From: Candidatus Rokuibacteriota bacterium
GTDB taxonomy: Bacteria; Methylomirabilota; Methylomirabilia; Rokubacteriales; CSP1-6
Length of the DNA stretch: 64,000 nucleotides
Direction: 5' to 3'
Assembly (NCBI GenBank): GCA_003220435.1
Contig: QHSL01000060.1
Span: 47,917 to 111,916 of the forward strand
Shown: piece by piece, positions 7,009-56,162 of the stretch
How positions within the stretch are numbered: position 1 is the stretch's first letter
How the letters are laid out: each line of letters opens with the position of its first letter
Made by a program: the position numbers and the translations under genes
The notes under the pieces: generated by a model
Databases searched by the model: none
What the model was told of the DNA's origin: nothing
The model's input: the letters and a program-made list of their open reading frames with translations, nothing else

Positions 7009-7482
7009 TCAGCTCGCCCTGGCCATGCTCGCCATGCGACGCTTCATCTCGTCCTCGGGCACGTCCTCCTTGTGGGTACCGACGTGCCAGATGTGCCCGA
7101 ACGGATCCTCGATGGTCCCGGTGCGATCGCCGTAGAACTTGTCCTCGACCGGCTGGACGAGCTTGGCGCCGCCGGCCACCGCCGCCTTGACCGTCGCGTC
7201 GACGTCCTCGACGTAGAGCATGATGCCGACGCCCGAGCCACCGAATGCCCGTGGGCTCCGCGCCCGGATGTCCGGATGCTCGTCGGCCAGCATGATCATG
7301 GAATCACCGATGCTGATCTCGGCGTGGCCCACCTTGCCACCCGGTGACGGCATGCGCATCCGCTCGGTGGCACCGAATATCCGTTTGTAGAAATCGAGGG
7401 CCTTGGCGGCGCCGTCGATGATCAGGTACGGCGTGGCGGTGTGATACCCCGTGGGAACCGGCGTCACCTTGGCTTTGCTCAT
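7009..7482 (-). CDS. VOC-family protein (glyoxalase/bleomycin-resistance/PhnB-like).
   Basis: MSKAKVTPVPTGYHTATPYLIIDGAAKALDFYKRIFGA...GHAEISIGDSMIMLADE is the PhnB/VOC fold pattern. A GGAGG Shine-Dalgarno sequence lies before the ATG at 7482. Confidence 0.75.
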   Translation of the reverse strand: MSKAKVTPVPTGYHTATPYLIIDGAAKALDFYKRIFGATERMRMPSPGGKVGHAEISIGDSMIMLADEHPDIRARSPRAFGGSGVGIMLYVEDVDATVKAAVAGGAKLVQPVEDKFYGDRTGTIEDPFGHIWHVGTHKEDVPEDEMKRRMASMARAS

Positions 7483-7549
7483 CGCGACCTCCATCCCCCT
7501 CACCCTGCACCCCGGCGGAAATCCGCCGGCGTCACCACGAACGGCGCGG

Positions 7550-8266
7550 TTACTCGAACCCCCACCGGCTCTCGACGATGATCTCGGCCGTCAGCGCGAG
7601 GTGATCGCTCAACGCGCGAACCGCCGCGTCGACATCGCGGTCACACACCGCCCGAGCGATCGTCGCGTGCTCCGCCCCGACCGCGCGCGGGCGCACGCCG
7701 TGAGCGAGGAAGCGATAGCGCTCCGACTGCTCGTAGAGCGTGTCGCGGAAGCGGAGCAGCCACGGAGACGCGCAGGCCGACACCAGGGCGAAGTGGAATC
7801 GCCGGTGGAGCGTCCGCCACGCCTCGAAGCGCGCGCCCGCATCGCCCGGTTGTGGGAGCGGCGTGGCCTCGAGCTCGCGGTACGCGGCGCGGATTCCCGC
7901 GAGCCAGTCAGCGCCGCCGAGCTCGATCGCCCGACGGAGCGCGAGCGCCTCGATGTCGATCCGCGCCTTCGTGATGTCCCGCAGCCTGCCGATCGACACC
8001 GGACTCACGCGGAATCCCCGCTGGTCCTCGGCCTGCACCAGGTCCTCGGCCGCCAGGCGTGACAGCGCTTCGCGGACGGCGCTGAGGCTCACGGCGAAGC
8101 GCCGCGCCAGCCCGGCGATCAGGAGCTTCTCGCCCGGCTTGAGGTGGCAGGACAGGATCTCGGCCCGCAGCTGCGCGAAGACGGCGCTGGTCAGGCTACG
8201 GACCGGCTGGCCGTCACGGGTCAGCCCGATCGTGAGGCCCGGGCGAGGCGAGAGGCGGACGGCCAT
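7550..8266 (-). CDS. GntR-family transcriptional regulator (FadR/FCD subfamily).
   Basis: The N-terminal winged HTH is LIAGLARRFAVSLSAVREALSRLAAEDLV. The C-terminal half is an all-helical FCD-like effector domain. Confidence 0.8.
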   Translation of the reverse strand: MAVRLSPRPGLTIGLTRDGQPVRSLTSAVFAQLRAEILSCHLKPGEKLLIAGLARRFAVSLSAVREALSRLAAEDLVQAEDQRGFRVSPVSIGRLRDITKARIDIEALALRRAIELGGADWLAGIRAAYRELEATPLPQPGDAGARFEAWRTLHRRFHFALVSACASPWLLRFRDTLYEQSERYRFLAHGVRPRAVGAEHATIARAVCDRDVDAAVRALSDHLALTAEIIVESRWGFE

Positions 8267-8307
8267 GGCGGCGCGACTATAGCCCGCGGCCACGAGGGTC
8301 ACAAGCA

Positions 8308-8325
8308 GAAAATCGATTTTCGATG
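8308..8325. promoter_or_regulatory. AT-rich perfect palindrome GAAAATCGATTTTCGATG in the divergent GntR / unknown-gene intergenic region. It is a candidate operator.
   Basis: AAATCGATTT is a 10-bp perfect palindrome, and ATCGA-AAA-TCGAT overlaps it. This is an AT island inside an otherwise roughly 70% GC region. It lies about 40-60 bp upstream of both divergent starts. Confidence 0.4.
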
Positions 8326-8358
8326 ACAAGAGCAGGTGGGCATGTTAAGGGGAGCCCG

Positions 8359-9807
8359 ATGATCATCCACGTCAACTTCCTGCCGAAGCCCGGCGACACC
8401 GGAGCCAGCGAGGTGATCGCGTCGCTCGCCGGCCTGCTCGATCAGGGTCGGCTCGACGGCGAGGTGCTCTCCCGCCTGCGGCTTCACCTGGACTGGCTCC
8501 AGTACAAGGCGAACTTCCGTGAGCCGATCACGGTCCGCCACGCCACCGGCGCTCGCGGCGAGCCGACCGCGCTCGCAGAGCTCGCGATCGACGTGCGCCG
8601 CGCGCGGCCCGAGCGCCTCGGCGACGAGCTCGCGCACGCGATCGCGTCGGTCGGCGCCGTGGAGCACGAGGTGGCCGGCCGCGCCGTCCTCGAGGACTGG
8701 GCACCGCTCAGCCGGAGTGCGATCTGGCAGTTCAATCGGCTCTTCTGGCAGCGCCTCGTCGATTGGGAGCGCCAGACGGGCCGGGGGTTCGAGGCGGCGC
8801 TGCCGAGCGGTCGGTCGGACGCGAACCATCCGGCGGCCGTCGCCGACGCGGTCGCCGATTTCTGGACGCTGCTGGTCGAGCTCGACAAGCGTGGCCAACT
8901 CCCGCAGGAGATCTTCGCGCTGGAGATCGGCGTGGGTCCAGGCACGCGGGCCGGGCTCTGGCTCGATCGCTTCAAGGCCCTCGACGAGGCGCGCGCCACC
9001 GGCTTCTATCCCCGCCTGCGCTTCCTGCTCGCGGATTACTCGATGCCGACGCTCGACCGCGCACACCGCGCCGTCGAGGCGCACCGCGACGTCGTCAGCA
9101 CGATCGCCACCGACGCGCTGAACCCGATGCGCGCGCTGTCGTTCCTCCGGTACAAGATCCTCTATGTCCACCTCACCAACGTGTACGACAACCTGCCGGT
9201 GGACGAGCTCGTCCGCCGCGACGGCCAGCTGTATCTGGTCGAGACCCGTGCGTATCTGCCGGAGCCGGCATCGACGGCAATTGCTCAGGCCTTCGGGGTT
9301 GGCCCGTCCGAGCAGCCGGCGACCGTCGGTCGCCTGCTCGAGGCGGGTCCCGACCTCTTTGGCGACCGCGAGCGCGGCGTGGCGTTCTGGCGCGCGGTAT
9401 GGGACGGCGTGTGTCTGGAGGAGCGCCTTCGCCGCCTCGAAGGCATCGCCGACGTGCCGCTGCCGCCCGGGCTCGACGGCACCGACCTGGAGGAGCTGCT
9501 CACGACCGCGCCCGCCGACATCCGGTTTCACCTCTCGGGTGGCGCGGTGGAGAGCTTCATGAACACGGTCCCGCTGTTGCACCCGCGCGGTTATCTCCAG
9601 GTGCAGGACATCTTCGTGGCCACGATGGACGAGTACCGCCAGGGGTTCCGGGGGCCGGGCAAGCTCGACGGCTCGGTCGTGAACTGGGTCAACGGCCCCC
9701 TCCTGCGCGTGGTCGGCGCGCGGGCCGGGTACGACGTGCACTTCGCGCCGTTCCGGTATCGGCCGGGCTCGCGCACGACCATTCTCTACACGACGCTCCG
9801 GGAGTGA
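8359..9807 (+). CDS. Hypothetical protein of 483 aa. It has a weak resemblance to a SAM-methyltransferase-like fold (ExGxGxG).
   Basis: Long ORF with strong codon bias. FALEIGVGPGTRAGLWLD loosely resembles methyltransferase motif I (MidA/DUF185-like). I recognise no confident family. It lies immediately upstream of the core-MetE gene. Confidence 0.55.
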   Translation: MIIHVNFLPKPGDTGASEVIASLAGLLDQGRLDGEVLSRLRLHLDWLQYKANFREPITVRHATGARGEPTALAELAIDVRRARPERLGDELAHAIASVGAVEHEVAGRAVLEDWAPLSRSAIWQFNRLFWQRLVDWERQTGRGFEAALPSGRSDANHPAAVADAVADFWTLLVELDKRGQLPQEIFALEIGVGPGTRAGLWLDRFKALDEARATGFYPRLRFLLADYSMPTLDRAHRAVEAHRDVVSTIATDALNPMRALSFLRYKILYVHLTNVYDNLPVDELVRRDGQLYLVETRAYLPEPASTAIAQAFGVGPSEQPATVGRLLEAGPDLFGDRERGVAFWRAVWDGVCLEERLRRLEGIADVPLPPGLDGTDLEELLTTAPADIRFHLSGGAVESFMNTVPLLHPRGYLQVQDIFVATMDEYRQGFRGPGKLDGSVVNWVNGPLLRVVGARAGYDVHFAPFRYRPGSRTTILYTTLRE

Positions 9808-9815
9808 GGGAGATC

Positions 9816-10817
9816 ATGGCCGGTCAGCACCTGACCACCGCCGTCGTCGGCAGCTACTCGATGCCCGGCTGGCTCGAGCGGGCGAAGAACGACTATCTGC
9901 GCCGGCGCATCACCGCGCACGATCTGGACGAGATGCACGACACCGCCGTGAAGGCCGCCATCAAGGACCAGGAGGTCGCCGGCATCGATATCGTCTCCGA
10001 CGGTGAGCTCCGCCGCGACAACATGATCGACTACTTCGCGATGCGGCTGCCCGGTGTCGAGATAGACCGTACGTCCAAGACGTCGTACTACGACTTCTAC
10101 GAGTCCGTCGTGCGCGGGCGGATGCCGATGGCGCCGCTCGGCCTCGTCGAGCACTACCGGTTCCTGCGCCGCTTCACCGACCACCGCACGAAGGTCTCGG
10201 TCACGGGCCCCCACTCGCTGGTCAAGCGCATCCGCAACGAGCACTACCCGAGCGAGGAAGCGTTCGCGATGGAGATCGCGCGCATCATGAACCTCGAGCT
10301 GCGCGAGCTGGTCCGTGCCGGCGCCGAGCAGATCCAGATCGACGAGCCCTACTACTCGGGGTTCCCCGAAGATCTGCCCTGGGGCGTGCGCGCAGTCAAC
10401 GCGTTGGTGGAGAACGTCGACGCGCGGCTGAGCCTCCACGTCTGCTACGGCAACCGCTACGGCAAGCCCTCGTGGGAGGGCAGCTACCGCTACCTGTTCC
10501 CGGCGATCCTCGAGGCGCGCATCGACCAGGTCACGCTCGAGTTCGCGCGGCGCGGCAGCGAGGACCTCCGGCTCTTCAAGGAGTTCGACGCGCCGTTCAC
10601 GCTCGGCCTCGGCGTCATCGACGTGAAGACCCACGATGTCGAGACGCCCGCGGTGGTGGCCGAGCGCATCCGGGAGGCGCTCGCGATCCTCCCGACCGAG
10701 CGGCTGTCCGTCAACCCGGACTGCGGCCTGCTGCATCTGCCACGCGAGATCGCCTTCGCCAAGCTCTGCGCGATGGTGGAGGGCACGCAGCTGGTGCGCC
10801 GCGAGATCTCTGGATGA
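9816..10817 (+). CDS. Core MetE: cobalamin-independent methionine synthase with only the C-terminal catalytic domain and no N-terminal folate-binding barrel.
   Basis: 333 aa. LSLHVCYGN supplies the Zn-ligand His/Cys, and NPDCGL is the MetE C-terminal DCGL motif. A GAGGGAG Shine-Dalgarno sequence precedes the ATG at 9816. The product is less than half the length of canonical MetE (about 750 aa). Confidence 0.8.
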   Translation: MAGQHLTTAVVGSYSMPGWLERAKNDYLRRRITAHDLDEMHDTAVKAAIKDQEVAGIDIVSDGELRRDNMIDYFAMRLPGVEIDRTSKTSYYDFYESVVRGRMPMAPLGLVEHYRFLRRFTDHRTKVSVTGPHSLVKRIRNEHYPSEEAFAMEIARIMNLELRELVRAGAEQIQIDEPYYSGFPEDLPWGVRAVNALVENVDARLSLHVCYGNRYGKPSWEGSYRYLFPAILEARIDQVTLEFARRGSEDLRLFKEFDAPFTLGLGVIDVKTHDVETPAVVAERIREALAILPTERLSVNPDCGLLHLPREIAFAKLCAMVEGTQLVRREISG

Positions 10818-10859
10818 CCAGAGCTGAGCAGTCTGGATGACCAGACCGGAGCTCTCCGG

Positions 10860-12287
10860 ATGACGAACCCGCTGCGGGTGGCGCTGGCGGCGGGGCGCTT
10901 CTGCTACGTGGTCGAGCTGGTCGCGTCCGCGCTCACCCGCGAGGCGCGGCTGCTGGAGACGGCGTCGGGCCTGGCGCGACTGCCCCAGGTGGTCGCCGGC
11001 AGCGTCACGAGCTACGCGGGCGGCGCGATGGGTCACGATCCGCTGCGGGTGGCCGCGGCGGCGCGCGCCCGCGGGCTGACCCCCAACATCCACCTGACGT
11101 GCGTGAGCCAGGACCGCGGCGGGCTGCGCAAGACCCTGGACGACATGCACGCGCTCTCGCTCGAGAACGTCTTCGCGCTCACCGGCGACTACCCGGGCGC
11201 GGGCGACCAGCCGCCGGTGTTCGATCTGGACTCGGTGCAGCTCGTCCATCTGGTCGACGAGCTGCGCCGGGGCGGCAAGGCGTTTCACGTCACGGTGGCG
11301 GTCTCGCCCTTCAAGTACACCGAAGCGGACTGCGTGTACCAGTACGTCAAGCTCGAGAAGAAGATCGCCGCCGGCGCCGACGCCGCCGTCACTCAGGTCG
11401 GCTGGGATGCGCGAAAGCTCGAGGAGCTCAAGCGCTACCTCGACGCGCGGGGGCTTCGCACCCCGCTGCTCGGCAACGTCTACGTGCTCGGCCCGAGGAC
11501 TGCCGAGCGGATGGCGACAGGCCGGCCGCCTGGATGCTGGGTCTCGCCCGAGCTGCTCGCCGCCGTGCGGGCCGAGAGCCTGGCGCAGGACGGCGGGCGT
11601 CAGGCTCGGCTCGAGCGGGCGGCCCGGACGGTGGCGGTGCTGCGCGGGTTGGGCTACGCCGGAGCCTATATCGGCGGCACCCACGACCCGGTGCAGATCG
11701 CCTGGATCATCAGGCGCGCCGACGAGCTGGCACCGAGGTGGGAGGCCCTCGCCGCCGAGCTTCGCTACGGCCCCGCCGGCGGCTTCTATCTTTCGGCGTC
11801 AGCGCCGCGCCCTCGGCACCCGCGACGGGACGCACTGCCGCGAATGCTGGAGTGGCTCGGGCGCGCGCTGCCGGTCACCCGCGACACGCCCCTCCGGCGA
11901 GCGCTCGCGCGCGTGTTCGCCTGGATCGACCGCCACCGGCCGGCCGCGGTGCTGCTCGAGCACGTCGAGCTCGCGATCAAGAAGCCCCTCTTCGGGTGCC
12001 AGGCGTGCGGCAACTGCGTGCTGGGCCACCTCGAGTACGTGTGCCCGCAGACCTGTCCCAAGCAGATGCGCAACGGCCCGTGCGGTGGCACCGACAACGG
12101 CCGATGCGAGGTGGTGCCGGACAAGCCCTGCATCTGGGTCGCGGTCCACGACCGCGCCAAGGCGTCGGGATCGCTCGACGGCCTCAAGACCTACGTCCCG
12201 CCGCCGCATCGCCAGCTTCGCGACACGAGCTCGTGGATCAACTACTTCCTGGACCGAGACAGCCGGCCCGGTCCGGGCGGAGGCTGA
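10860..12287 (+). CDS. metF: Methylenetetrahydrofolate reductase (MetF-like) fused to a C-terminal MetV-type zinc-ribbon domain.
   Basis: The N-terminal roughly 300 aa form an MTHFR TIM barrel (HLTCVSQDRGGLRKTLDDM, FALTGDYP). The C-terminus has CQACGNCVLGHLEYVCPQTCPKQMRNGPCGG, a Cys-rich MTHFR_C/MetV domain. That domain is a separate small protein in acetogens. Confidence 0.8.
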   Translation: MTNPLRVALAAGRFCYVVELVASALTREARLLETASGLARLPQVVAGSVTSYAGGAMGHDPLRVAAAARARGLTPNIHLTCVSQDRGGLRKTLDDMHALSLENVFALTGDYPGAGDQPPVFDLDSVQLVHLVDELRRGGKAFHVTVAVSPFKYTEADCVYQYVKLEKKIAAGADAAVTQVGWDARKLEELKRYLDARGLRTPLLGNVYVLGPRTAERMATGRPPGCWVSPELLAAVRAESLAQDGGRQARLERAARTVAVLRGLGYAGAYIGGTHDPVQIAWIIRRADELAPRWEALAAELRYGPAGGFYLSASAPRPRHPRRDALPRMLEWLGRALPVTRDTPLRRALARVFAWIDRHRPAAVLLEHVELAIKKPLFGCQACGNCVLGHLEYVCPQTCPKQMRNGPCGGTDNGRCEVVPDKPCIWVAVHDRAKASGSLDGLKTYVPPPHRQLRDTSSWINYFLDRDSRPGPGGG

Positions 12288-12424
12288 TGTGCACCGGTCC
12301 CCTGGGCCAAGATGATCGAGGAGAAGAGCGGCGGCCGCCTCAACGCCGTGTCAGCGCAGGTCGCGCAAGCAAGACACGCAGGCGAGCTCGTGTCGGCAGC
12401 TACTGAGATGCGTTCGCTGAGATC

Positions 12425-12595
12425 AACCGCCGACGCGGCCGCGACGGGGGTCGAGGGCGGGGGTCCCCTGGGCGACCTGTGTAGTCAGGGTTGACCAGAA
12501 ATCTCGCGTCGAGACACAGGCGAAGCGCGTCGCAGCTACCAGGTCGCTCAGGGGACCCCCGGCCTCGACCTCGTCGCGGCCGCAGACGACGCGAA
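12425..12595. repeat. Long imperfect palindrome (hairpin element A). Stems of about 50 bp enclose a 60-nt loop that begins TGTAGTCAGGGTTG.
   Basis: The left arm is 12431-12480 (GCCGACGCGGCCGCGACGGGGGTCGAGGGCGGGGGTCCCCTGGGCGACCTG). Its reverse complement matches the right arm at 12541-12590 with about 5 mismatches or indels. The loop spans 12481-12540. Confidence 0.7.
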
Positions 12596-12600
12596 GGCAG

Positions 12601-13026
12601 CTAAGTGAGGCGCTTGGCGCGAGTCGCCGGCACGAGCTGCCCGTACCTGACGCCTTTGAGCGCGAGCAGCTCGTTGGCGACGGAGCGGATCCGGCGCGGC
12701 GACCCGCGGAGGGCCACGACCTCGAGGCACGTGTGCGCGTCCAGGTGAATGTGGAGCGCCGCGGTGATCGTGCGATAGCTGTGGTGCTGGATGTCGGTGA
12801 GCTTGTCCTCCAGCGCGCGCGTGCCGTGGTCGTAGACCAGCGACAGAACGCCCACCGTCTCGCCCGGCCGCCGTGTCCATTCCTCCTTGACGAGCTCGGC
12901 GCGCAGCAGGTCGCGCACGAACTCGCTGCGGTTCGCGTAGCGGCGGCCGGCGCGCAGGCGGTCCAGCGTGCGCATCAGCCGGGCCGGCAGCGAGACGGTA
13001 AACCGGACGGCGCGCTCGTCGGGCAT
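12601..13026 (-). CDS. nikR: Nickel-responsive transcriptional regulator NikR.
   Basis: The N-terminal ribbon-helix-helix is VRFTVSLPARLMRTLDRL. The C-terminal ACT-like domain carries the Ni-site motif HIHLDAHTCLEV (H-x-H...H-x-C). The product is 141 aa. Confidence 0.8.
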   Translation of the reverse strand: MPDERAVRFTVSLPARLMRTLDRLRAGRRYANRSEFVRDLLRAELVKEEWTRRPGETVGVLSLVYDHGTRALEDKLTDIQHHSYRTITAALHIHLDAHTCLEVVALRGSPRRIRSVANELLALKGVRYGQLVPATRAKRLT

Positions 13027-13082
13027 CGCAGTCGCGATCGTACTGGATCGACCCGTCTCGGCGTGGTATTACCTTTCAGCCG

Positions 13083-15134
13083 ATGTTCATACCCAGCCGT
13101 ATCGCCGGCGCGATCCTGGCCGGCGCCTTGCTGGTGGCGCCCGGCGCTGAAGGCCAGGCGCCGCCCTCCCCCCCGGCGCCGCCGCCTCGAACGGACGAGC
13201 AAGCGCTACCGCCGGTCACGGTGACGGCGCCGCTGCCCGTTTCCGCGTCGTCCGAGACCCTGATCCCGGGACGCGACTTCGAGCTGCGCCCCCAGGGCCG
13301 GCCGGCCGACGTGGTGCGCCTCATCCCCGGGTTCGTCATCAGCCAGCACCAGGGCGGCGGCAAGGCCGAGCAATACTTTCTGCGAGGCTTCGACGCCGAC
13401 CACGGCACCGACGTCGCGCTCTTCGTCGACGGGCTTCCCGTCAACCTCCGGAGCCACGCGCACGGCCAGGGATACGCCGATCTCCACTTCCTGATCCCCG
13501 AGACGATCCAGCGGATCGAGGGGTTCAAGGGGCCCTATTTCGTGGAGTATGGGGATTTCGCCACCGCGGGCGCGGTGAACTTCGTGCTCCGCGACGTGGT
13601 GGACGAGAACGTGGCCGAGGCCGCCGGCGGAATGTTCAACACGCAGCGCTATCTCACGCTCTTCTCGCCGACGCGGGACACCCTCAAGACCCTCGTCGCG
13701 CTCGAGTACTACCGCAACGACGGCGCCTTCGAGCATCCGAACGGCTACCAGCGTTTCAATCTCCTGGCCCGGGCGCGCGCGACCGTGAGTGAGGGGATGA
13801 ATCTCGGCGGGTGGCTCTCCCACTACCAGGCCGAATGGCACGGCTCGGGCGAGATCCCGGTGCGCGCCGTCCGCACCGGGCTCCTCTCGCGCTTCGGGTC
13901 GATCGACCCCAACGAGGGCGGCTACACCCAGCGAAGCAACCTCAACGTCGACTGGAGCTGGCGCCTCGACGAGCAGCAGCTCGTGGCGGTGCGCGCGTAC
14001 GGCAGCTACTACGCGCTCGACCTCTTCAACAACTTCACCTTCTTTCTCAATGACGAGCAGAACGGCGACGAGATCAATCAGCGCGATCGTCGCGTCCTGG
14101 CCGGCCTCGACGCCCGGTACGAGCACGAGAGCAAGCCCTTCGGGGCGAGCCTCACCAGCACCGCGGGCTTCCAGTACCGCATCGACACGCCCCGGGTCGT
14201 CCTCGCGCGCTCGGTGCAGCGCCACCAGCTCGAGCGCGTCCAGGACGTCGACGTCGTCGAGCAGTCGTACGCGCCCTACGTCAAGCTCGACCTCGTCCCC
14301 CTCGACTGGCTGCGCCTCGTCACCGGCGCGCGCGGCGACATCTTCAGCTACGACGTGCGCTCGCGCGTCAACGCGACCGGCGAGAGCCTGGACGGCGAGG
14401 CCACGAGGGCCCGCGCGAACGTGAAGGCCAACCTCGTCCTGGGCCCCTGGTACCGGACCGAACTCTTCGCGAACTTCGGCACGGGTTACCACAGCAACGA
14501 CGCGCGCGCGGTGATCAGCGATCCGCGCCAGCCCGCCCTGCCGACCGCGCGCGGCTACGAGTTCGGCGTCAAGACGCGGGCCATCCCGCGGGTCGAGTTC
14601 TCCGCGACGTACTGGGTCATCGACCTCGCCAGCGAGCTGGTGTTCGTCGGCGACGACGGCACGACCGAAGCTCGCGGGCCGAGCCACCGCGACGGCTGGG
14701 AGCTGGCGCTGCGCGCGAAGCTGCTCGACTGGCTCGAGTTCGCGGGCGACACGACCTTCAGCAACGCGGCGTTCGATACGGGCGAGGCGATACCGCTGGC
14801 GCCGAAGGTGACGGCGCGGGCCGAGCTGACCGCGCGGATGCCGTGGGGGCTCTCGACGAGCTTCGAGATGCGCTACCTCGCCGACCGCTGGGCCGACGAG
14901 GCCCGCCAGCAGACGGCGCGCGGCTACCTGCTCTTCGACTGGACGGCCCGCTATCGCTACAAGTCGATCGAGGCGTTCGTGAGCATCGAGAACCTCTCGA
15001 ACGTCGACTGGCGCGAAGCCCAGTTCTTCTTCACCTCGCGCCTCGCCAACGAGCCCGCTACCGGCGTGCCCGACATCCACTACACCCCCGGCACTCCTCG
15101 CACCGTCCTCGGCGGCCTCGCCGTTCGCTTTTGA
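13083..15134 (+). CDS. TonB-dependent outer-membrane receptor. It is a candidate Ni/Co uptake receptor because it neighbours nikR.
   Basis: There is a signal peptide (MFIPSRIAGAILAGALLVAPGAEG) and a plug domain (DFELRPQGRPADVVRLIPGFVIS...GFDADHGTDVALFVDGLPVN). The 22-strand barrel ends in a terminal aromatic (LGGLAVRF). Confidence 0.85.
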   Translation: MFIPSRIAGAILAGALLVAPGAEGQAPPSPPAPPPRTDEQALPPVTVTAPLPVSASSETLIPGRDFELRPQGRPADVVRLIPGFVISQHQGGGKAEQYFLRGFDADHGTDVALFVDGLPVNLRSHAHGQGYADLHFLIPETIQRIEGFKGPYFVEYGDFATAGAVNFVLRDVVDENVAEAAGGMFNTQRYLTLFSPTRDTLKTLVALEYYRNDGAFEHPNGYQRFNLLARARATVSEGMNLGGWLSHYQAEWHGSGEIPVRAVRTGLLSRFGSIDPNEGGYTQRSNLNVDWSWRLDEQQLVAVRAYGSYYALDLFNNFTFFLNDEQNGDEINQRDRRVLAGLDARYEHESKPFGASLTSTAGFQYRIDTPRVVLARSVQRHQLERVQDVDVVEQSYAPYVKLDLVPLDWLRLVTGARGDIFSYDVRSRVNATGESLDGEATRARANVKANLVLGPWYRTELFANFGTGYHSNDARAVISDPRQPALPTARGYEFGVKTRAIPRVEFSATYWVIDLASELVFVGDDGTTEARGPSHRDGWELALRAKLLDWLEFAGDTTFSNAAFDTGEAIPLAPKVTARAELTARMPWGLSTSFEMRYLADRWADEARQQTARGYLLFDWTARYRYKSIEAFVSIENLSNVDWREAQFFFTSRLANEPATGVPDIHYTPGTPRTVLGGLAVRF

Positions 15135-15270: not shown

Positions 15271-15424
15271 GTAGTCCGGGCGGGGGGCGCGGGGGTGGGT
15301 AGGCCCCTCCGCGGTCCGTGTAGTCAGGGTTGTCCCGAAGGGGAGTTCTTAGAAGAGGAAGCAGCGGGCAGCGGCTACCGGACCGCGGAGGGGCCTACCC
15401 CCCCGCGCCCCCCGCCCGGACTAC
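15271..15424. repeat. Long near-perfect palindrome (hairpin element B). Stems of about 48 bp enclose a 60-nt loop that begins TGTAGTCAGGGTTG and ends GGCTAC.
   Basis: The left arm 15271-15318 is GTAGTCCGGGCGGGGGGCGCGGGGGTGGGTAGGCCCCTCCGCGGTCCG. Its reverse complement matches the right arm 15379-15424 with about 2 differences. The loop shares its first 14 nt and last 5 nt with element A. The arm sequences are unrelated to those of A. Confidence 0.75.
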
Positions 15425-17712
15425 TTAATAGCGACAGCTTTGACCTGGCGGAAGTCCGTAAGCCCGCTGATGGTCTTGAGCACGCCATCCTGCACGAGCG
15501 TGGTCATGCCTTCGGTCTTCGCCTGTACCAGCATCTCGGCGACGCGCGACCTGGTCTGGATGAGGCGCTTCAGCTCGTCGGTCGCGATCAGCAGCTCGTG
15601 GATCGCGGCCCGCCCGCGGTAGCCGGTCTTGCCGCAGGCGCTGCAGCCCTTGCCGCGGTAGAGCACGAACGACTCCTCATACTTGTGGCCGAGCGCGGCC
15701 AGGGCCTCCGCGCCGTACGCCTCGGCGAGCTCGTCGAACTCGCCGCGGTCGGGATGGTACTCCGTCTTGCAGTCGGTGCAGATGCGCTTGACGAGGCGCT
15801 GCGCCATGATGCCCAGCAGCGCGTCGGCGAAGTTGAACGGGTCGAGGCCCATGTCGAGCAAGCGGATGACCGTCTCCACCGAGCTGTTCGTGTGGAGCGT
15901 GCTGAACACCAGGTGGCCGGTCAGCGAGGCTTCGATGCCGGTCGACGCCGTCTCCTCGTCGCGCATCTCGCCGACCATGATCACGTCGGGGTCGGCCCGG
16001 AGGAAGGCGCGCATCGCGGCCGCGAAGTCGAAGCCGATCTTCGGCATCACCTGCACCTGGCGCAGGCCGTACTGCGTGATCTCGACCGGGTCCTCGGCGG
16101 TCCAGATCTTGCGCTCGGGCTTGTTGATGTGGCCGAGGAGCGAGTGCAGCGTGGTAGTCTTGCCCGAGCCGGTCGGCCCGACGCACAGGATGAGCCCGTA
16201 CGGCTTCTCGGCGACCCGCTTGAGCTCGCGGAGGTTGCGGTCCGTCATGCCGAGCTTGTCGAGCGCGATCAGCTCGCTGGCCGCCAGGATCCGCATGACC
16301 ACGTCCTCGTTCTGGTTCGCGGTCGGGATCGTGGCGACACGCAGCTCGATCTCACGGTCGGAGAGCTTGAACTTGATCTTGCCGTCCTGCGGCTTGCGCC
16401 GCTCGGCGATGTCGAGCTGGGCCATGATCTTGATGCGCGCCACGATGGCGCGCCGGTAGGCGCCGGGGATCTTCTGGTACTCCGAGCAGCCGCCGTCGAT
16501 CCGGTACCGGATCACGGTGTCCTTCTGGGTGCCATAGGGCTCGATGTGGATGTCGGAGGCACGCGCCTTGTAGGCGTCCACGATGATCTGGTTGGCGAGC
16601 CGGATGACCGCGCTGTCGTTCTCGTCGAGCTCGCCCAGGCCCATGTCGAGCGTCTCGGTGACGTCTTCGTTCCGCAGGTCGCCGAGGATCGTGCCGATCG
16701 AATCCCTCGCGGTGGTCTCGCCGCCGGCCTGGGCGAGGAAGCGCAGGATGTCCTTCCGGAGCCCGACCGCCCACTTGATCTTCCGGCTCTTCAGCGCCTG
16801 GCTGACGCTGTCCACCCGTTGCAGGTCTTGAGGATTGTCGATGATGACCAGCACACCGTCGTCCTCGCGCCGGAGCGGCATCCAGAAGTTGCGCCGCAGG
16901 TATTCGATCCGAAGATCCTTCATGAGATCGGGCGGCGGGATGATCCGCTCGTCGTACTCGACGAACGGGCACCGGTAGAACTGGCTCAGCGAGACGCCCA
17001 GCTCGTTCGTGGGGACCTTGTACTGCTCGATCAGGATCGACTCGACGTCGGTCTGTCGGCGCCGCGCCTCGGCGATCGCCGAATTCAGCTCGTCCAGCGA
17101 GACTCGGTGCTGCGCCAGCAGGTAGTCGAACTTGGTCTTGGGCCGGTTCTGGCTCTGGATCAGCTGGGTCTGGTTGTTGAACGCGATGCCGAGCGTCTTG
17201 GCGATCCGCGAGACGCCGGTCTCGTCGTCCTTCGTGAAGCGAGGGCCTTTCTTCTTGTTCAGGAGCTGGATCACGCCGATCGTCCGGCCCTCGTGCTGCA
17301 CCGGCATGCCCAGGATCTGCTTGGTCCGGAAGCCCGTCTTCTTGTCCCACGAGCTGTCGAAGCCCAGGGTGGGCGAGATCATCATGAGCTCCGCCCGGTC
17401 GTAGGCGTCCGTGATGTTCACGATCTTGCCGGTGGCGGCGACGAACCCGGCGACGCTCTTTTCGTTGATGGGGAGCCGGATCTCCTTGACCGTGTCGAGC
17501 GCCAGGAACTTCGAGTAGAGCTCCTGCTTGCCGGGCTCGACCGCGTAGATCGTCATCCGGTCGGCGTCGAGCAGGCCGAGGATCTCACCCTGGAGCTCGA
17601 TGAAGAGGCTGTCGATGGTCTTTGCCGCGTGGATGCGGTCGACGAGCTGGACGAGCTTCTGCTCGTACGCGAGGCGCTGCTGTAGGACGACGACCGACTC
17701 TGCTTGGGCCAC
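15421..17712 (-). CDS. Type II secretion / type IV pilus assembly ATPase (GspE/PilB family) with an N-terminal GAF-like domain.
   Basis: Walker A is GPTGSGKTT. The Asp box, Walker B, His box and the C-terminal tetracysteine CTDCK...CSACG are typical of GspE/PilB. The N-terminal roughly 180 aa are GAF-like. I chose the GTG start at 17712 preceded by GGGAGGAAGC. Confidence 0.85.
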   Translation of the reverse strand: MAQAESVVVLQQRLAYEQKLVQLVDRIHAAKTIDSLFIELQGEILGLLDADRMTIYAVEPGKQELYSKFLALDTVKEIRLPINEKSVAGFVAATGKIVNITDAYDRAELMMISPTLGFDSSWDKKTGFRTKQILGMPVQHEGRTIGVIQLLNKKKGPRFTKDDETGVSRIAKTLGIAFNNQTQLIQSQNRPKTKFDYLLAQHRVSLDELNSAIAEARRRQTDVESILIEQYKVPTNELGVSLSQFYRCPFVEYDERIIPPPDLMKDLRIEYLRRNFWMPLRREDDGVLVIIDNPQDLQRVDSVSQALKSRKIKWAVGLRKDILRFLAQAGGETTARDSIGTILGDLRNEDVTETLDMGLGELDENDSAVIRLANQIIVDAYKARASDIHIEPYGTQKDTVIRYRIDGGCSEYQKIPGAYRRAIVARIKIMAQLDIAERRKPQDGKIKFKLSDREIELRVATIPTANQNEDVVMRILAASELIALDKLGMTDRNLRELKRVAEKPYGLILCVGPTGSGKTTTLHSLLGHINKPERKIWTAEDPVEITQYGLRQVQVMPKIGFDFAAAMRAFLRADPDVIMVGEMRDEETASTGIEASLTGHLVFSTLHTNSSVETVIRLLDMGLDPFNFADALLGIMAQRLVKRICTDCKTEYHPDRGEFDELAEAYGAEALAALGHKYEESFVLYRGKGCSACGKTGYRGRAAIHELLIATDELKRLIQTRSRVAEMLVQAKTEGMTTLVQDGVLKTISGLTDFRQVKAVAIK

Positions 17713-17779
17713 GCTTCCTCCCGGACCAGCCAACCAATTCAGTCTAGCAGAGGAGGGCTCGGCCGCCGTAGCATGGCGC

Positions 17780-18973
17780 ATGGCGTCCATGCCCAGACGG
17801 GCCGACGTGATCGTCGTGGGTGGTGGTGCAAACGGGACCAGCACCGCATATCACCTTGCCGCTCGCGGAGTTAGGAGCGTTCTGCTGCTCGAGCGGCACC
17901 ATCTCGGCGCCGGCGCCACCGGAAAATCCGGCGCCCTGGTGCGGATGCACTACACCAACGAGGCCGAGTCCAGGCTCGCGTTCGAAAGCCTCAAGATGTT
18001 TCGCGAATTCCGGAACATCGTCGGCGGCGACTGCGGGTTCGAGCCGATCGGCTTTCTGCAGCTCGTGGCGCCGGGCTTCGAGGCGGCCCTCGAGCGCAAC
18101 GTGACACGGCAGCAGCGCCTCGGGATCGGCACCCAGGTCCTCAGCCCGGATCGGGTGCGGGATCTCCTGCCGGGCAGTCGCGTCGACGACCTCGGCGCCG
18201 CCGCGTGGGAGCCCAACTCGGGCTTCGCCGATCCGAACGCGACGACGTTCGGCTTCGCCGAGGCGGCACGGCGGCTGGGCGCCACGATCGAGACTGGCTG
18301 CGAGGTCACGAGGATCGTCACCGAGCGCGGGCGCGTCGTCGGTGTCGAGACCGCGAACGGACGCGTCGACACCGACACGGTGGTTCTGGTGCCCGGCGCC
18401 TGGGCCGCGCCCCTGCTGAAGCCGCTCGGCCTCGACTTCGGGCTGGCGCCGCACCGGATCCAGATCACCATCTTCCGCTGGCCGGCCGGATTCGACACTC
18501 GCCACTGCGTCGTCATCGACGCCACCCGGCACTCGTGGTTCCGTCCAGAGGGCTCGGCCGCAACGCTGATCGGCGTCGAGCTCGGCGTGGGTCACGCCGA
18601 CCCCGACACGTACGACGAGGGCGTCGATCCGGAGTTCGTGGCGACCTGCCGCGAAGCGTTGAGCGCGCGCCTGCCGGCCTTCGCGAAGGCCACCATGCGC
18701 GGCGGTTGGGCGGGAATGATCATGATGAGCCCCGACGGTCGGCCGATCATCGACCAGATCCCGTCGGTCGCAGGACTCTACTGCATGCTCGGCGACTCGG
18801 GAACCTCGTTCAAGACATCCCCGGCGATCGGCAAGTGCCTCGCCGAGTGGATCGTGGACGGTAAACCGCGGACCGTCGACCTCACGCCGTTCCGCTCGAC
18901 GCGGTTCGCCGAGGGGAGGCTCTGGCAGGACGCGGACAACTACGGGCTCGATGGGCTGACGATTTCCCGCTGA
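17780..18973 (+). CDS. FAD-dependent oxidoreductase (DAO family, sarcosine/glycine-oxidase-like).
   Basis: DVIVVGGGANGTSTAYHLA is a dinucleotide-binding motif. Length and the C-terminal pattern fit the DAO family. Confidence 0.8.
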   Translation: MASMPRRADVIVVGGGANGTSTAYHLAARGVRSVLLLERHHLGAGATGKSGALVRMHYTNEAESRLAFESLKMFREFRNIVGGDCGFEPIGFLQLVAPGFEAALERNVTRQQRLGIGTQVLSPDRVRDLLPGSRVDDLGAAAWEPNSGFADPNATTFGFAEAARRLGATIETGCEVTRIVTERGRVVGVETANGRVDTDTVVLVPGAWAAPLLKPLGLDFGLAPHRIQITIFRWPAGFDTRHCVVIDATRHSWFRPEGSAATLIGVELGVGHADPDTYDEGVDPEFVATCREALSARLPAFAKATMRGGWAGMIMMSPDGRPIIDQIPSVAGLYCMLGDSGTSFKTSPAIGKCLAEWIVDGKPRTVDLTPFRSTRFAEGRLWQDADNYGLDGLTISR

Positions 18974-20378: not shown

Positions 20379-20820
20379 CGCGGCGGCCCGCTCTCGTCGC
20401 CGAGGAGCTGCATCTGCAGCGTGTCGACCTCGCCCTGGTAGTGATCGCGCTGCGCCTTCACGACGTCGCCGATCGACACCATGCCGACCAGCCGGCCGCC
20501 GCTGTCCACGACCGGCAGGTGACGGATCCGCCGCTCGGTCATCGTGTGCGCCACCGCGAGGAGATCGTCGTGCGGCTGCCCCGTGATGACGTCGCGGGTC
20601 ATGAGGTCGGCGACCGAGCGCTCGAGGAAGCCCTCGTTGCGCGCGGCCTCGCGCACGATGTCGCGTTCGGAGAGGATCCCCACCGGGCGATTTCCCTCCA
20701 CGGCGATCAGCGCGCCGATGTTGTGGCGATCCAGCAGCGCGAGCGCCTCCCGGATTGACTCCTCGGGACGGACCGTCACGGCGATCGAGCCCTTGCGCGC
20801 GAGGATGTTCGCGATGTTCA
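20375..20820 (-). CDS. CBS-domain pair protein.
   Basis: MNIANILARKGSIAVTV... has two CBS repeats (GALIAVEGNRPVGILSERDIV and HLPVVDSGGRLVGMVSIGDVV). The six-frame track fuses it with the upstream MeaB gene in another frame. Confidence 0.8.
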
Positions 20821-56016: not shown

Positions 56017-56162
56017 CGCGCGATTATAGCGTTCCCACGCCACCCCCTGAATCGTTATCCTGAAACCTAGCATCTGTTGGAGCGGGGTCCGGGAGACCGG
56101 CTCGAACCGAGGGTGGCCCGAGAGAGGCGCGGCGTGGCTCCGACACGCACGAGGAGGGATCC

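What the first reader, a model, noticed from the sequence alone, without database searches (positions are those of the whole stretch)
8359..12287. Truncated core-MetE next to a fused MetF-MetV reductase and an unclassified 483-aa protein
The MetE homolog has only the C-terminal Zn/homocysteine domain (HVCYGN ... DCGL). It lacks the N-terminal barrel that binds methyl-THF-polyglutamate in canonical MetE. Such core-MetE proteins have been proposed to be folate-independent methionine synthases that take methyl groups from corrinoid or other partner proteins. Here it sits between an unknown 483-aa protein (weak methyltransferase-like GxGxG) and an MTHFR whose C-terminus is fused to the Cys-rich MetV-type domain that is a separate subunit in acetogens. 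The unknown protein is a good candidate for the missing methyl-donor partner. The divergent GntR gene and the AT-rich palindrome at 8308-8325 may regulate the set.
Basis: partly seen in the sequence, partly recalled or inferred. Interest (0 to 1): 0.55.

Follow-up and report, generated by a model that had tools for sequence, protein, structure and literature searches.

The report
Conserved core-MetE, MTHFR, MidA-like methyltransferase module
Three adjacent genes (a methyltransferase-fold protein of unknown role, a half-size methionine synthase and a folate reductase) form a module kept together across many uncultured soil bacteria, and it probably makes methionine without vitamin B12 in a way nobody has described.

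Summary
Window 8359-12287 carries three co-directional genes. They are a 482-aa protein with no Pfam or NCBIfam hit, a 333-aa core-MetE with intact zinc and homocysteine ligands, and an MTHFR fused to a MetV-type Cys-rich domain.

The linkage is not chance. In 166 non-redundant loci from at least six phyla, core-MetE lies directly after the unknown gene in 130 of the 146 loci with enough sequence downstream.

Elsewhere the protein is fused to MTHFR in several architectures. There, core-MetE is replaced by the unrelated PF02574 homocysteine methyltransferase. MetK, AhcY, an adenosine-kinase-like PfkB, PurU and formate-THF ligase join the cluster in some lineages.

My best reading is a folate-linked, B12-independent methionine-synthase or methyl-cycle module in which the MidA-like protein is an obligate third component. 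Its chemical role is unresolved: methyl hand-over, SAM gating or methyl sink.

I found no published description.

The parts
7550..8266 (-). GntR/FCD-family transcription regulator, divergent from the trio. The ORF is open to 8329 but the likely start is the ATG at 8266.
   Evidence: PF00392 at 1e-16 and PF07729 FCD at 7e-22; the best NCBIfam model is CsiR-like at 127 bits, below its cutoff. Relatives align only from residue 19-22. A sigma-70-like promoter for this gene lies at 8304-8276. The gene is linked to the trio only in the closest relatives L006, L010 and L012.
8309..8320 (.). Perfect 12-bp palindrome AAAATCGATTTT in the 92-bp divergent intergenic region, 39 bp upstream of the first gene of the trio. 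Candidate operator.
   Evidence: It is unique in the window, with 0 of 100 shuffles giving a match even at one mismatch. The identical 12-mer lies at the same distance upstream in L006 and L010, the two loci that keep a full-length GntR, and in none of the other 170 loci. Binding by the GntR protein is inferred, not shown.
8359..9807 (+). 482-aa MidA/NDUFAF7(COG1565)-like class I methyltransferase-fold protein (called UNK in the report). It has an extra N-terminal alpha/beta domain of about 100 aa. The Rossmann core is about aa 185-300. Motif I is E189-x-G191-x-G193-x-G195 (nt 8923-8943). The acidic residue at the end of strand 2 is D226. The DALNP motif is at 252-256. Motif IV is H271-LTNVYDNLP-280 (nt 9169-9198).
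9816..10817 (+). 333-aa core-MetE: the zinc-dependent homocysteine S-methyltransferase barrel only. Zinc ligands are H208, C210, E242 and C303. Homocysteine ligands are S13, E64 and D176.
   Evidence: PF01717 at 6e-45. The best NCBIfam model is NF003317/PRK04326 at 292 bits, below its cutoff of 406; no equivalog cutoff is reached. The best solved structure is 3RPD (a MesD) at 152 bits. All seven ligands are at least 95% conserved in 68 orthologues. The Trp of the canonical TGPxTxxSW motif is Arg139 here.
10803..10864 (.). Three tandem copies of a 23-nt unit (GAGnnnTCyGGATGAC) spanning the core-MetE stop and the MTHFR start.
   Evidence: the repeat finder family D1: three copies with 23-nt spacing. 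In relatives the core-MetE stop and MTHFR start overlap or abut (for example L012, L002 and L003). Here the junction is triplicated, leaving a 42-nt spacer with two 8-codon mini-ORFs (read).
10860..12287 (+). 475-aa methylenetetrahydrofolate reductase fused to a MetV-type Cys-rich domain. The MTHFR barrel is nt 10896-11483 or beyond. The DUF5981/MetV domain is nt 11967-12203.
   Evidence: PF02219 at 9e-21 and PF12225 at 7e-26. The HLTC, ALTGD and TQ motifs align to solved MetF structures. Eight Cys of the motif FGCxxCGNC...CPxTC...PCGG...C...C are at least 95% conserved in 53 orthologues. MetV is an FeS- and zinc-containing subunit of acetogen MetVF reductases (PMC8760232).

Best explanation
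The three genes are one functional unit: a cobalamin-independent, folate-linked methionine-synthase (methyl-cycle) module.

(1) The MetF-MetV fusion reduces 5,10-methylene-THF to 5-methyl-THF. Family membership is shown. The reductive direction and the electron donor are inferred.

(2) The core-MetE binds homocysteine on its zinc site and forms methionine. The ligands are shown. Activity is inferred.

(3) The 482-aa MidA-like methyltransferase-fold protein is an obligate accessory component coupled to both enzymes. The coupling is inferred from conserved adjacency, repeated fusion to MTHFR, and replacement of core-MetE by another homocysteine methyltransferase.

The homocysteine enzyme has no folate-binding half and lacks the Trp of the canonical TGPxTxxSW motif. 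I therefore think the MidA-like protein either presents or hands over the methyl group of 5-methyl-THF to the zinc-thiolate, or gates this step with bound SAM/SAH. The gating version would resemble the SAM-binding regulatory domain of eukaryotic MTHFR. Which of the two is unresolved.

In the window's lineage the set is probably controlled by the divergent GntR/FCD regulator through the AAAATCGATTTT palindrome (inferred).
For: Gene identities.

Linkage:
- The trio appears in the same order in the first three look-ups and in about 75 of 80 species-level genome loci.
- Overall, core-MetE lies directly after the MidA-like gene in 130 of 146 loci with room, with a median gap of about 25 nt.
- No other neighbour is broadly conserved.

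Fusions:
- MTHFR-DUF5981-UNK proteins of about 1200 aa (P0152, P0163 and about 19 more).
- MTHFR-UNK (P0200).
- UNK-MTHFR (P0255).
- Divergent MTHFR-like-UNK proteins (P0218, P0229, P0230, P0261). Their N-terminal halves have no Pfam hit; the resemblance to MTHFR is my reading of their motifs.
- Sources.

Non-orthologous replacement: in three of four distinct contexts the fusion gene is directly preceded by a stand-alone PF02574 homocysteine methyltransferase. In L091 the two genes overlap by 4 nt. That protein is most like the N-terminal half of YitJ-type HMT/MTHFR enzymes.

Methyl-cycle neighbours:
- AhcY-MetK-UNK-cMetE in L099.
- MetVF-UNK-cMetE-MetK-PurU in L135 and L152.
- MetK directly before UNK in L070.
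- Formate-THF ligase in 28 loci.
- Sources.

The core-MetE is closest to the archaeal PRK04326 model. From memory, that model corresponds to the catalytic subunits of split MetE, which normally pair with a separate folate-binding subunit (PMC7857596). None is present here.

MetVF enzymes have no NADH site and their physiological partner is an open question (PMC8760232).
Against: - The accessory protein has the fold and intact SAM-type motifs of a real methyltransferase. I know of no class I methyltransferase-fold protein that uses methyl-THF, so a hand-over role would need new chemistry.
- One clade of the family (38-42% identical; L094-L108) lacks an adjacent core-MetE. It sits next to MTHFR, MetK, AhcY and PfkB instead. 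That fits a general methyl-cycle role at least as well as a MetE-subunit role.
- In several lineages the trio is embedded among catabolic genes: acyl-CoA dehydrogenase, AMP-ligases, TRAP transporters and GcvT-family genes. PurU, an irreversible deformylase, is a neighbour in some loci. Both hint at methyl oxidation rather than biosynthesis.
- I could not test whether these genomes lack MetH or full-length MetE.
- No physical interaction or activity was tested.
Confidence: 0.45

Rival explanations
1. Methyl-supply operon for a dedicated methyltransferase. The MidA-like protein is an ordinary SAM-dependent methyltransferase acting on an unknown protein or small-molecule acceptor, so it is the 'sink' of the cycle. 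MTHFR, core-MetE and, in some lineages, MetK, AhcY, adenosine kinase and FTHFS are co-encoded only to regenerate SAM. The core-MetE would use 5-methyl-THF on its own.
For: - MidA/NDUFAF7 fold with conserved motif I, the strand-2 acidic residue, DALNP and motif IV.
- Pfam methyltransferase hits in relatives.
- L099 (AhcY-MetK-UNK-cMetE) encodes exactly a closed methyl cycle if UNK is the methyltransferase.
- Clade B members have no core-MetE next to them but do have MetK, AhcY and PfkB.
Against: - A SAM consumer has no obvious reason to be fused several times to MTHFR, which is three steps away, rather than to MetK or AhcY.
- It also has no obvious reason to keep an almost invariant position directly upstream of the homocysteine methyltransferase across phyla.
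- Core-MetE and PF02574 proteins are not known to use methyl-THF alone (PMC7857596, PMC7005905), so the methyl-delivery gap stays open.
Confidence: 0.25
2. Methyl-harvest and oxidation module running the other way. The homocysteine methyltransferase (core-MetE or PF02574) takes methyl groups from 'onium' donors such as betaines, S-methylmethionine or DMSP. After activation to SAM, the MidA-like N-methyltransferase passes the methyl to THF or to another acceptor. MetVF then oxidises 5-methyl-THF towards formate through PurU or FTHFS.
For: - Catabolic context in some lineages: acyl-CoA dehydrogenase overlapping the start of UNK, AMP-ligases, enoyl-CoA hydratase, methylcitrate genes, and TRAP or CitMHS transporters.
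- GcvT-family genes in L037, L128 and L130.
- PurU and FTHFS as neighbours. From memory, this resembles the metF-folD-purU and ligM-metF-ligH demethylation clusters.
- The stand-alone PF02574 partners score high against the BHMT model.
- A PF02574 enzyme can use DMSP or betaine directly (PMC12366255).
- MetVF-type enzymes oxidise methyl-THF with flavin or rubredoxin acceptors (PMC8760232).
Against: - It needs an unknown reaction (SAM to THF methyl transfer) and costs about three ATP equivalents per methyl group.
- The planctomycete contexts are housekeeping, not catabolic.
- No transporter or catabolic gene is conserved with the trio overall.
- The window itself has no such neighbours next to the trio.
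Confidence: 0.12
3. Electron-input module. The Rossmann-type protein binds NAD(P)H rather than SAM and supplies the nucleotide site that MetVF-type reductases lack. This would be analogous to RnfC2 in type III enzymes.
For: - MetF and MetV have no NADH site, and the donor of type II enzymes is unknown (PMC8760232).
- The tightest coupling of UNK is to MTHFR, by fusion and adjacency in every clade.
- A glycine-rich loop plus an acidic residue at the end of strand 2 is also an NAD signature.
Against: - The conserved motif IV and C-terminal domain are methyltransferase features.
- No flavin or FeS motif is present to convert hydride transfer into one-electron transfer.
Confidence: 0.07
4. This is a folate-independent core methionine synthase of the MesA-D kind, and its neighbour is a MesX-like or corrinoid methyl-donor protein.
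For: The core-MetE lacks the folate-binding half. Its best solved relative is a MesD (3RPD, 152 bits). The window encodes MeaB, so the organism probably uses B12.
Against: - The neighbour hits no DUF1852 or B12-binding family and has a SAM-methyltransferase fold.
- The MesD-, MesA- and MetE-type NCBIfam cutoffs are all missed.
- A dedicated MTHFR is co-encoded or fused, which a folate-independent route would not need.
- No corrinoid-protein gene is conserved nearby. The single B12-binding gene in L090 is 3.6 kb away on the other strand.
Confidence: 0.03
5. No functional unit. The short MetE is a decayed fragment and the adjacency is chance.
For: None found.
Against: All catalytic residues are conserved, amino-acid identity across phyla is 64-95%, and the same order recurs in about 130 loci.
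Confidence: 0.01

Closest known systems
Split MetE of archaea and Sulfobacillus (catalytic Meth_synt_2 subunit plus separate Meth_synt_1 subunit; Price et al. 2021, PMC7857596)
   Same: A half-size catalytic subunit with the full zinc and homocysteine site, encoded next to a partner gene and expected to use a methyl-pterin. The window's core-MetE scores best against PRK04326 (292 bits). From memory, that model represents these archaeal proteins.
   Different: The score is below the model's cutoff. The neighbouring partner is a MidA-like methyltransferase-fold protein, not a Meth_synt_1 barrel. An MTHFR is part of the unit. The hosts are soil bacteria.
MesD/MesX (core methionine synthase plus DUF1852, oxygen-dependent; PMC7857596)
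   Same: A bacterial core-MetE that depends on a neighbouring protein of unknown chemistry. 3RPD is the best solved relative. Glu is kept at the position that is Gln in MesA and MesC.
   Different: No DUF1852 is present. NF006589 scores 183 bits against a cutoff of 392. MesD does not need MetF, whereas here MTHFR is co-encoded or fused.
YitJ-type bifunctional homocysteine S-methyltransferase/MTHFR of Firmicutes (NF006396)
   Same: A direct physical link between a folate-domain-less homocysteine methyltransferase and MTHFR. The PF02574 partners of the planctomycete fusions score best against its N-terminal half (about 250 bits).
   Different: YitJ has no MetV domain and no MidA-like domain. Its homocysteine domain is PF02574, not MetE-type.
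Eukaryotic MTHFR with a C-terminal SAM-binding regulatory domain
   Same: Catalytic barrel first, SAM-binding module after it, in the same order as the roughly 1200-aa bacterial fusions. This would explain conserved SAM motifs without a methyl acceptor.
   Different: From memory, the eukaryotic regulatory domain has a different, non-Rossmann fold. It did not appear among the fold matches. Here motif IV is also conserved, which suggests catalysis.
MidA/NDUFAF7/COG1565 (PF02636) protein arginine methyltransferases
   Same: Best fold match over about 270 residues, including the C-terminal domain. Motif spacing is similar. From memory, MidA carries E-x-G-x-G-x-G, a VE-x-SP motif and ANEFFDALP.
   Different: The window protein shows no sequence-level hit. 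It has an extra N-terminal domain of about 100 aa. Its genomic partners are methyl-cycle enzymes, not complex I.
MetVF (type II) methylene-THF reductases of acetogens (PMC8760232)
   Same: A MetF barrel plus a Cys-rich FeS/zinc MetV module. There is no NADH site and the physiological partner is unknown.
   Different: The two parts are fused in MetF-MetV order in the window; they are separate metV-metF genes in some relatives (L123, L141, L145). The hosts are not acetogens. The enzyme is always paired with the MidA-like protein.

Membership tests
Core-MetE (Meth_synt_2-only methionine synthase) | Single C-terminal-type barrel of about 300-390 aa with no Meth_synt_1 domain | tested here: met
   333 aa. 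PF01717 covers residues 7-324. There is only a weak secondary PF08267 similarity inside the same barrel.
Core-MetE (Meth_synt_2-only methionine synthase) | Zinc ligands His/Cys/Glu/Cys and homocysteine ligands Ser/Glu/Asp (E. coli H641, C643, E665, C726; S433, E484, D599) | tested here: met
   H208, C210, E242, C303 and S13, E64, D176 are each at least 95% conserved in 68 orthologues.
Core-MetE (Meth_synt_2-only methionine synthase) | Methionine formation from homocysteine with a non-folate methyl donor | not testable with these tools
   This needs an enzyme assay.
MesD/MesX | Adjacent DUF1852 (MesX) gene, and close similarity to ACIAD3523 or the NF006589 model | tested here: not met
   No DUF1852 hit on the neighbour. 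NF006589 scores 183 bits against a cutoff of 392. No conserved gene other than UNK and MTHFR lies nearby.
MesA (methanogen core synthase) | About 40% or more identity to the M. marburgensis enzyme; found only in methanogens | tested here: not met
   NF002119 scores 154 bits against a cutoff of 258; I assume from memory that this model represents MesA. The hosts are bacteria.
MesB/MesC (linked to the Wood-Ljungdahl corrinoid FeS protein) | Presence of, or clustering with, acsC/acsD | tested here: inconclusive
   No conserved corrinoid-protein neighbour within 8-10 kb on either side in 166 loci. Whole genomes could not be searched.
Split MetE | Separate Meth_synt_1 (folate-binding) subunit, usually adjacent | tested here: not met
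   The adjacent gene has a MidA-like fold. No neighbour of the expected kind is conserved. A distant Meth_synt_1 gene elsewhere in the genome cannot be excluded.
MetVF-type MTHFR | PF02219 barrel with flavin and folate motifs, plus a Cys-rich MetV (PF12225) module | tested here: met
   PF02219 at 9e-21 and PF12225 at 7e-26. HLTC, TGD and TQ motifs are present. Eight conserved Cys.
MetVF-type MTHFR | FeS clusters, and activity with reduced ferredoxin or flavin but not NAD(P)H | not testable with these tools
   Biochemical property (PMC8760232).
MidA/NDUFAF7/COG1565 (PF02636 Methyltransf_28) | Family fold: class I methyltransferase core plus the family-specific C-terminal domain | tested here: met
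MidA/NDUFAF7/COG1565 (PF02636 Methyltransf_28) | Sequence match to the Pfam model at its gathering score | tested here: not met
   The window protein has no hit. Six of 28 relatives hit, best E 9e-7. P0255 scores 25.4 bits against a cutoff of 23.3. I file it as a distant relative, not a member.
MidA/NDUFAF7/COG1565 (PF02636 Methyltransf_28) | SAM binding and protein arginine methylation | not testable with these tools
   SAM-type motifs are conserved. Binding and the substrate are unknown.

The most novel reading that the evidence does not exclude
The MidA-like protein is a class I methyltransferase-fold enzyme recruited to methionine synthesis itself. Docked on, or fused to, the MetVF reductase, it takes the 5-methyl-THF made there and delivers its methyl group to zinc-activated homocysteine held by a folate-domain-less partner. 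That partner can be core-MetE or, interchangeably, a PF02574 protein. Bound SAM/SAH might serve as a non-consumed cofactor or switch. This would be a fifth kind of methionine synthase: B12-independent, independent of the MetE N-terminal domain, and common in uncultured soil phyla.
Probability: 0.25. Interest if true: 0.85.

Novelty: new variant of a known kind. Interest (0 to 1): 0.68.

Why it matters
Two questions are open. How do core methionine synthases obtain methyl groups outside Wood-Ljungdahl organisms? What do MetVF-type reductases couple to? This module links both to one conserved, uncharacterised protein family. The family has more than 2000 members and 649 clusters at 50% identity. 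It occurs in Acidobacteriota, Methylomirabilota/Rokubacteria, Binatia, Chloroflexota, Planctomycetota and some Actinomycetota, all of them poorly cultured soil and groundwater lineages.

If the module is their methionine synthase, genome-based predictions of methionine prototrophy and B12 dependence for these phyla would change. It would also give the bacterial MidA/COG1565 superfamily a first metabolic context.

The question can be tested directly with three or four cloned genes.

Tried and rejected
- Pfam, NCBIfam and PDB sequence searches on the 482-aa protein gave nothing, either as a single sequence or as profiles A1 and A3.
- The first structure model, built from a shallow alignment (65-92% identity), was poor (pLDDT 64). 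It only suggested a generic methyltransferase fold. Adding the MTHFR-fusion homologues raised pLDDT to 88.
- The afdb50 fold library was unavailable.
- The Phaeocystis 'MetE-fusion' paper looked like a possible match. Its domains are PKS/ACP plus MetE plus a CzcO oxidoreductase, so it is unrelated.
- P0290, an apparent UNK-core-MetE fusion, is a frameshifted gene call on a long-read contig and not a real fusion.
- No riboswitch (SAM, B12 or THF) was found in the window or in seven diverse loci.
- The context of the divergent fusion P0261 was uninformative.
- A DMSP-demethylation (dmdBCD-like) reading of the Rokubacteria neighbours was considered. Those neighbours are not conserved with the trio, so I kept it only as part of a low-probability rival.
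- The first attempt at the metagenome scan failed because the alignment was too divergent. It was repeated with A5.
- Seven full-text literature searches found no description of this gene set.
None is present in the 64-kb window.

Full report
**1. Observation**

The window has about 70% G+C. Real genes stand out by third-position G+C near 0.9.

- The first gene encodes 482 aa. Its ATG at 8359 is preceded by GGGGAG. Homologues are 482 aa and align end to end.
- The second gene (9816-10817) starts 8 nt after the stop of the first and encodes 333 aa.
- The third gene (10860-12287) encodes 475 aa.
- A GntR/FCD regulator is divergent from the trio. The ORF is open to 8329, but its real start is probably 8266.
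- The AT-rich palindrome is a perfect 12-mer, AAAATCGATTTT, at 8309-8320.

**2. The two recognisable enzymes**

*Core-MetE.* The 333-aa protein is a full Meth_synt_2 barrel (E 6e-45) with no N-terminal barrel. It reaches no NCBIfam equivalog cutoff. The scores are listed below; the family assignments in brackets are from my memory and were not checked with the tools.

| NCBIfam model | Score (bits) | Cutoff (bits) |
|---|---|---|
| PRK04326 (archaeal type) | 292 | 406 |
| PRK09121 (MesD-like) | 183 | 392 |
| PRK00957 (MesA-like) | 154 | 258 |
| Canonical MetE models | about 105 | 541-930 |

- Its best solved relative is 3RPD, a MesD (152 bits).
- Price et al. (PMC7857596) use seven residues to judge function: H208, C210, E242, C303, S13, E64 and D176 in this protein. 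All seven are at least 95% conserved in 68 orthologues.
- In the alignment to T. maritima MetE, the Trp of the canonical TGPxTxxSW motif is Arg139 here. From memory, that Trp stacks on the pterin.
- So this is an intact homocysteine-activating enzyme without the usual means of holding methyl-folate.

*MTHFR.* The 475-aa protein is an MTHFR barrel (HLTC, ALTGD and TQ motifs) followed by PF12225/DUF5981.

- Eight cysteines of that domain are at least 95% conserved in 53 orthologues.
- In acetogens, MetV is a separate FeS- and zinc-containing subunit. MetVF enzymes have no NADH site, and their physiological donor is still debated (PMC8760232).
- The fused form is what the Pfam family was named for, so the fusion itself is not new.

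**3. The unknown protein**

Searches found more than 2183 homologues, nearly all labelled hypothetical, at 65-92% identity among the top 120. An exhaustive search found 649 representatives at 50% identity. Every cluster member examined came from a MAG, a metagenome or a raw sequencing run, never from a named isolate. One was annotated 'class I SAM-dependent methyltransferase'.

*Structure.*
- A first AlphaFold model was poor (pLDDT 64).
- Adding distant fusion homologues to the alignment gave pLDDT 88.2 and pTM 0.88.
- The top six Foldseek hits are the same family.

*Sequence.*
- Six of 28 diverse relatives hit PF02636 Methyltransf_28 (best E 9e-7). So does the fusion protein P0255.
- The most conserved positions are the classical SAM-site elements:
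  - E189-x-G191-x-G-x-G;
  - D226 at the end of strand 2;
  - D252-A253 (DALNP);
  - H271-LTNVYDNLP, which from memory resembles the MidA motif ANEFFDALP.

The protein is therefore a distant MidA-like class I methyltransferase-fold protein with an extra N-terminal domain of about 100 aa. It is not MesX-like, and it matches no corrinoid-binding family.

**4. Linkage**

- Three context look-ups all showed the same trio.
- A scan of one genome per species returned 80 loci from Rokubacteria/Methylomirabilota, Binatia, Acidobacteriota (Vicinamibacterales, Acidiferrales, Terriglobia), Chloroflexota and an actinobacterial MAG.
- A metagenome scan seeded with distant members returned 80 more loci.
- Over 166 non-redundant loci, core-MetE lies directly after the MidA-like gene in 130 of the 146 loci with enough sequence. 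The median gap is about 25 nt.
- MTHFR is within 3 kb in 106 of 144 loci. This is a lower bound, because many contigs end early.
- Clustering all neighbouring ORFs found nothing else broadly conserved.

**5. Fusions and replacement**

The MidA-like domain occurs fused to MTHFR in several architectures:
- MTHFR-DUF5981-UNK, about 1200 aa, about 20 clusters, mostly Planctomycetota.
- MTHFR-UNK (P0200).
- UNK-MTHFR (P0255).
- A divergent MTHFR-like domain fused to UNK (P0218, P0229, P0230, P0261). Their N-terminal halves have no Pfam hit. I read them as MTHFR-like from their motifs only.

In three of four distinct contexts the 1200-aa fusion gene is directly preceded by a stand-alone PF02574 homocysteine S-methyltransferase. 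In L091 the two genes overlap by 4 nt. That protein scores best against the N-terminal half of YitJ-type HMT/MTHFR (about 250 bits), then BHMT, then MetH.

So two unrelated zinc-dependent homocysteine methyltransferases, neither with a folate domain, alternate as partner of the same MTHFR-plus-MidA-like pair. This is the strongest evidence that the unit acts on homocysteine and methionine.

**6. Wider neighbours**

- L099 reads AhcY-MetK-UNK-cMetE.
- L135 and L152 read MetVF-UNK-cMetE-MetK-PurU.
- In L070 MetK directly precedes UNK.
- A divergent clade (38-42% identical, L094-L108) lacks core-MetE:
  - UNK is followed by MTHFR (L094, L096, L097, L107);
  - it is flanked by MetK, by a PfkB kinase that is probably adenosine kinase, by AhcY or by PurU;
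  - in L100 and L102 a PF02574-class I methyltransferase fusion lies beside it.
- Formate-THF ligase occurs in 28 loci, usually right after MTHFR.
- GcvT-family genes occur in three loci.
- Sources.
- Some Rokubacteria and Binatia loci embed the trio among an acyl-CoA dehydrogenase, AMP-ligases, methylcitrate genes and TRAP transporters.
- No riboswitch was found.

**7. Local regulation**

The 12-mer palindrome is unique in the window, with none found in 100 shuffles. It recurs identically, about 40 bp upstream of the first gene, in L006 and L010. These are the two related loci that keep a full-length GntR gene. L012 retains only a GntR fragment and lacks the palindrome. A sigma-70-like promoter for the regulator abuts it. 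Operator function is inferred.

**8. Mechanism**

*Shown:*
- the gene identities;
- the intact active-site residues;
- the MidA-like fold with SAM-type motifs;
- the conserved adjacency;
- the fusions to MTHFR;
- the interchange of homocysteine methyltransferase families;
- the methyl-cycle neighbours.

*Inferred:*
- MetFV supplies 5-methyl-THF.
- Core-MetE makes methionine.
- The MidA-like protein is an obligate coupling component.

Neither type of homocysteine enzyme is known to use methyl-THF unaided (PMC7857596; PMC7005905). The only other conserved gene is the MidA-like one. The simplest complete model gives it either the hand-over role or a SAM-gating role. I put this at 0.45.

*Weaknesses of this model:*
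- A SAM-type fold has no known methyl-THF chemistry.
- The clade without core-MetE fits a general methyl-cycle role.
- The catabolic contexts and PurU point towards methyl oxidation.

*Alternatives* (detailed under rivals):

| Alternative | Confidence |
|---|---|
| Ordinary SAM-dependent 'sink' methyltransferase with its own supply operon | 0.25 |
| Methyl-harvest and oxidation route running in reverse | 0.12 |
| NAD(P)H input module for MetVF | 0.07 |
| MesX-like or corrinoid version | 0.03 |
| Chance adjacency or decayed gene | 0.01 |

**9. Comparison and novelty**

- The unit works most like a split MetE or a MesD/MesX pair: a core enzyme plus a helper.
- It also resembles YitJ (homocysteine methyltransferase joined to MTHFR) and eukaryotic MTHFR (barrel plus SAM-binding module).
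- It fails the membership tests for MesA, MesD, split MetE and PF02636. It is a member only of the broad core-MetE and MetVF kinds.
- Seven full-text searches found no description.
- I rate it a new variant of a known kind, with interest 0.68.

Noticed in passing
window 10803-10864: The core-MetE stop and MTHFR start junction is triplicated as three 23-nt tandem units (GAGnnnTCyGGATGAC). This leaves a 42-nt spacer with two 8-codon mini-ORFs. In relatives the stop and start overlap or abut. It may be a recent slippage duplication that uncouples translation.
   Followed up: partly
L018-L025, L029, L106, L128, L145, L164, L169 (for example L024:8729-9826): A second, distant MetE-like paralogue of about 365 aa (25-29% identical to the core-MetE) often lies just upstream of the trio in Rokubacteria. 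It scores 290 bits against NF005085/PRK06520, which from memory is the YxjG/YxjH-like type. A third paralogue (37-39% identical, PRK04326-like) follows MTHFR in L014, L026 and L063. Several homocysteine methyltransferases in one locus may mean several methyl donors.
   Followed up: partly
L100:5430-7208 (-) and L102: A 592-aa fusion of a PF02574 homocysteine S-methyltransferase domain with a small class I (PrmA/MTS-like) methyltransferase domain lies next to a clade-B MidA-like gene. This is another pairing of a homocysteine-binding domain with a methyltransferase-fold domain.
   Followed up: no
L003/L004/L008 versus window 7009-15134: A MAG labelled Binatia shares the window's flanking genes (glyoxalase, NikR, TonB-dependent receptor) and 84-90% identical trio proteins. 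It also has RND efflux genes upstream and TRAP DctPQM plus a GNAT gene between MTHFR and NikR, all absent from the window. Either the taxonomic labels are inconsistent or the region was rearranged recently.
   Followed up: no
window 20818-21852 (-): A MeaB-type GTPase (methylmalonyl-CoA mutase chaperone) is present, so the organism probably uses cobalamin. This bears on whether a B12-independent methionine route is a backup or the main route.
   Followed up: no
window 43867-50010 (-): A 2047-aa hybrid histidine kinase with eight GAF domains, plus HisKA, HATPase and a receiver domain. It is unusually GAF-rich.
   Followed up: no
window 15421-17844 (-): A GspE/PilB-type secretion ATPase with an N-terminal GAF domain and an MshEN domain.
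   Followed up: no
window 646-1962 (+), 40228-41172 (+), 54310-56073 (-): Three sizeable ORFs (438, 314 and 587 aa) with coding-like codon bias have no Pfam hit at E 1e-5.
   Followed up: no
L090:15229-15924 (-): A stand-alone B12-binding protein (PF02607 plus PF02310, 231 aa) lies 3.6 kb from one planctomycete PF02574 plus MTHFR-MetV-MidA-like pair. This was seen once, so it may be coincidence.
   Followed up: no
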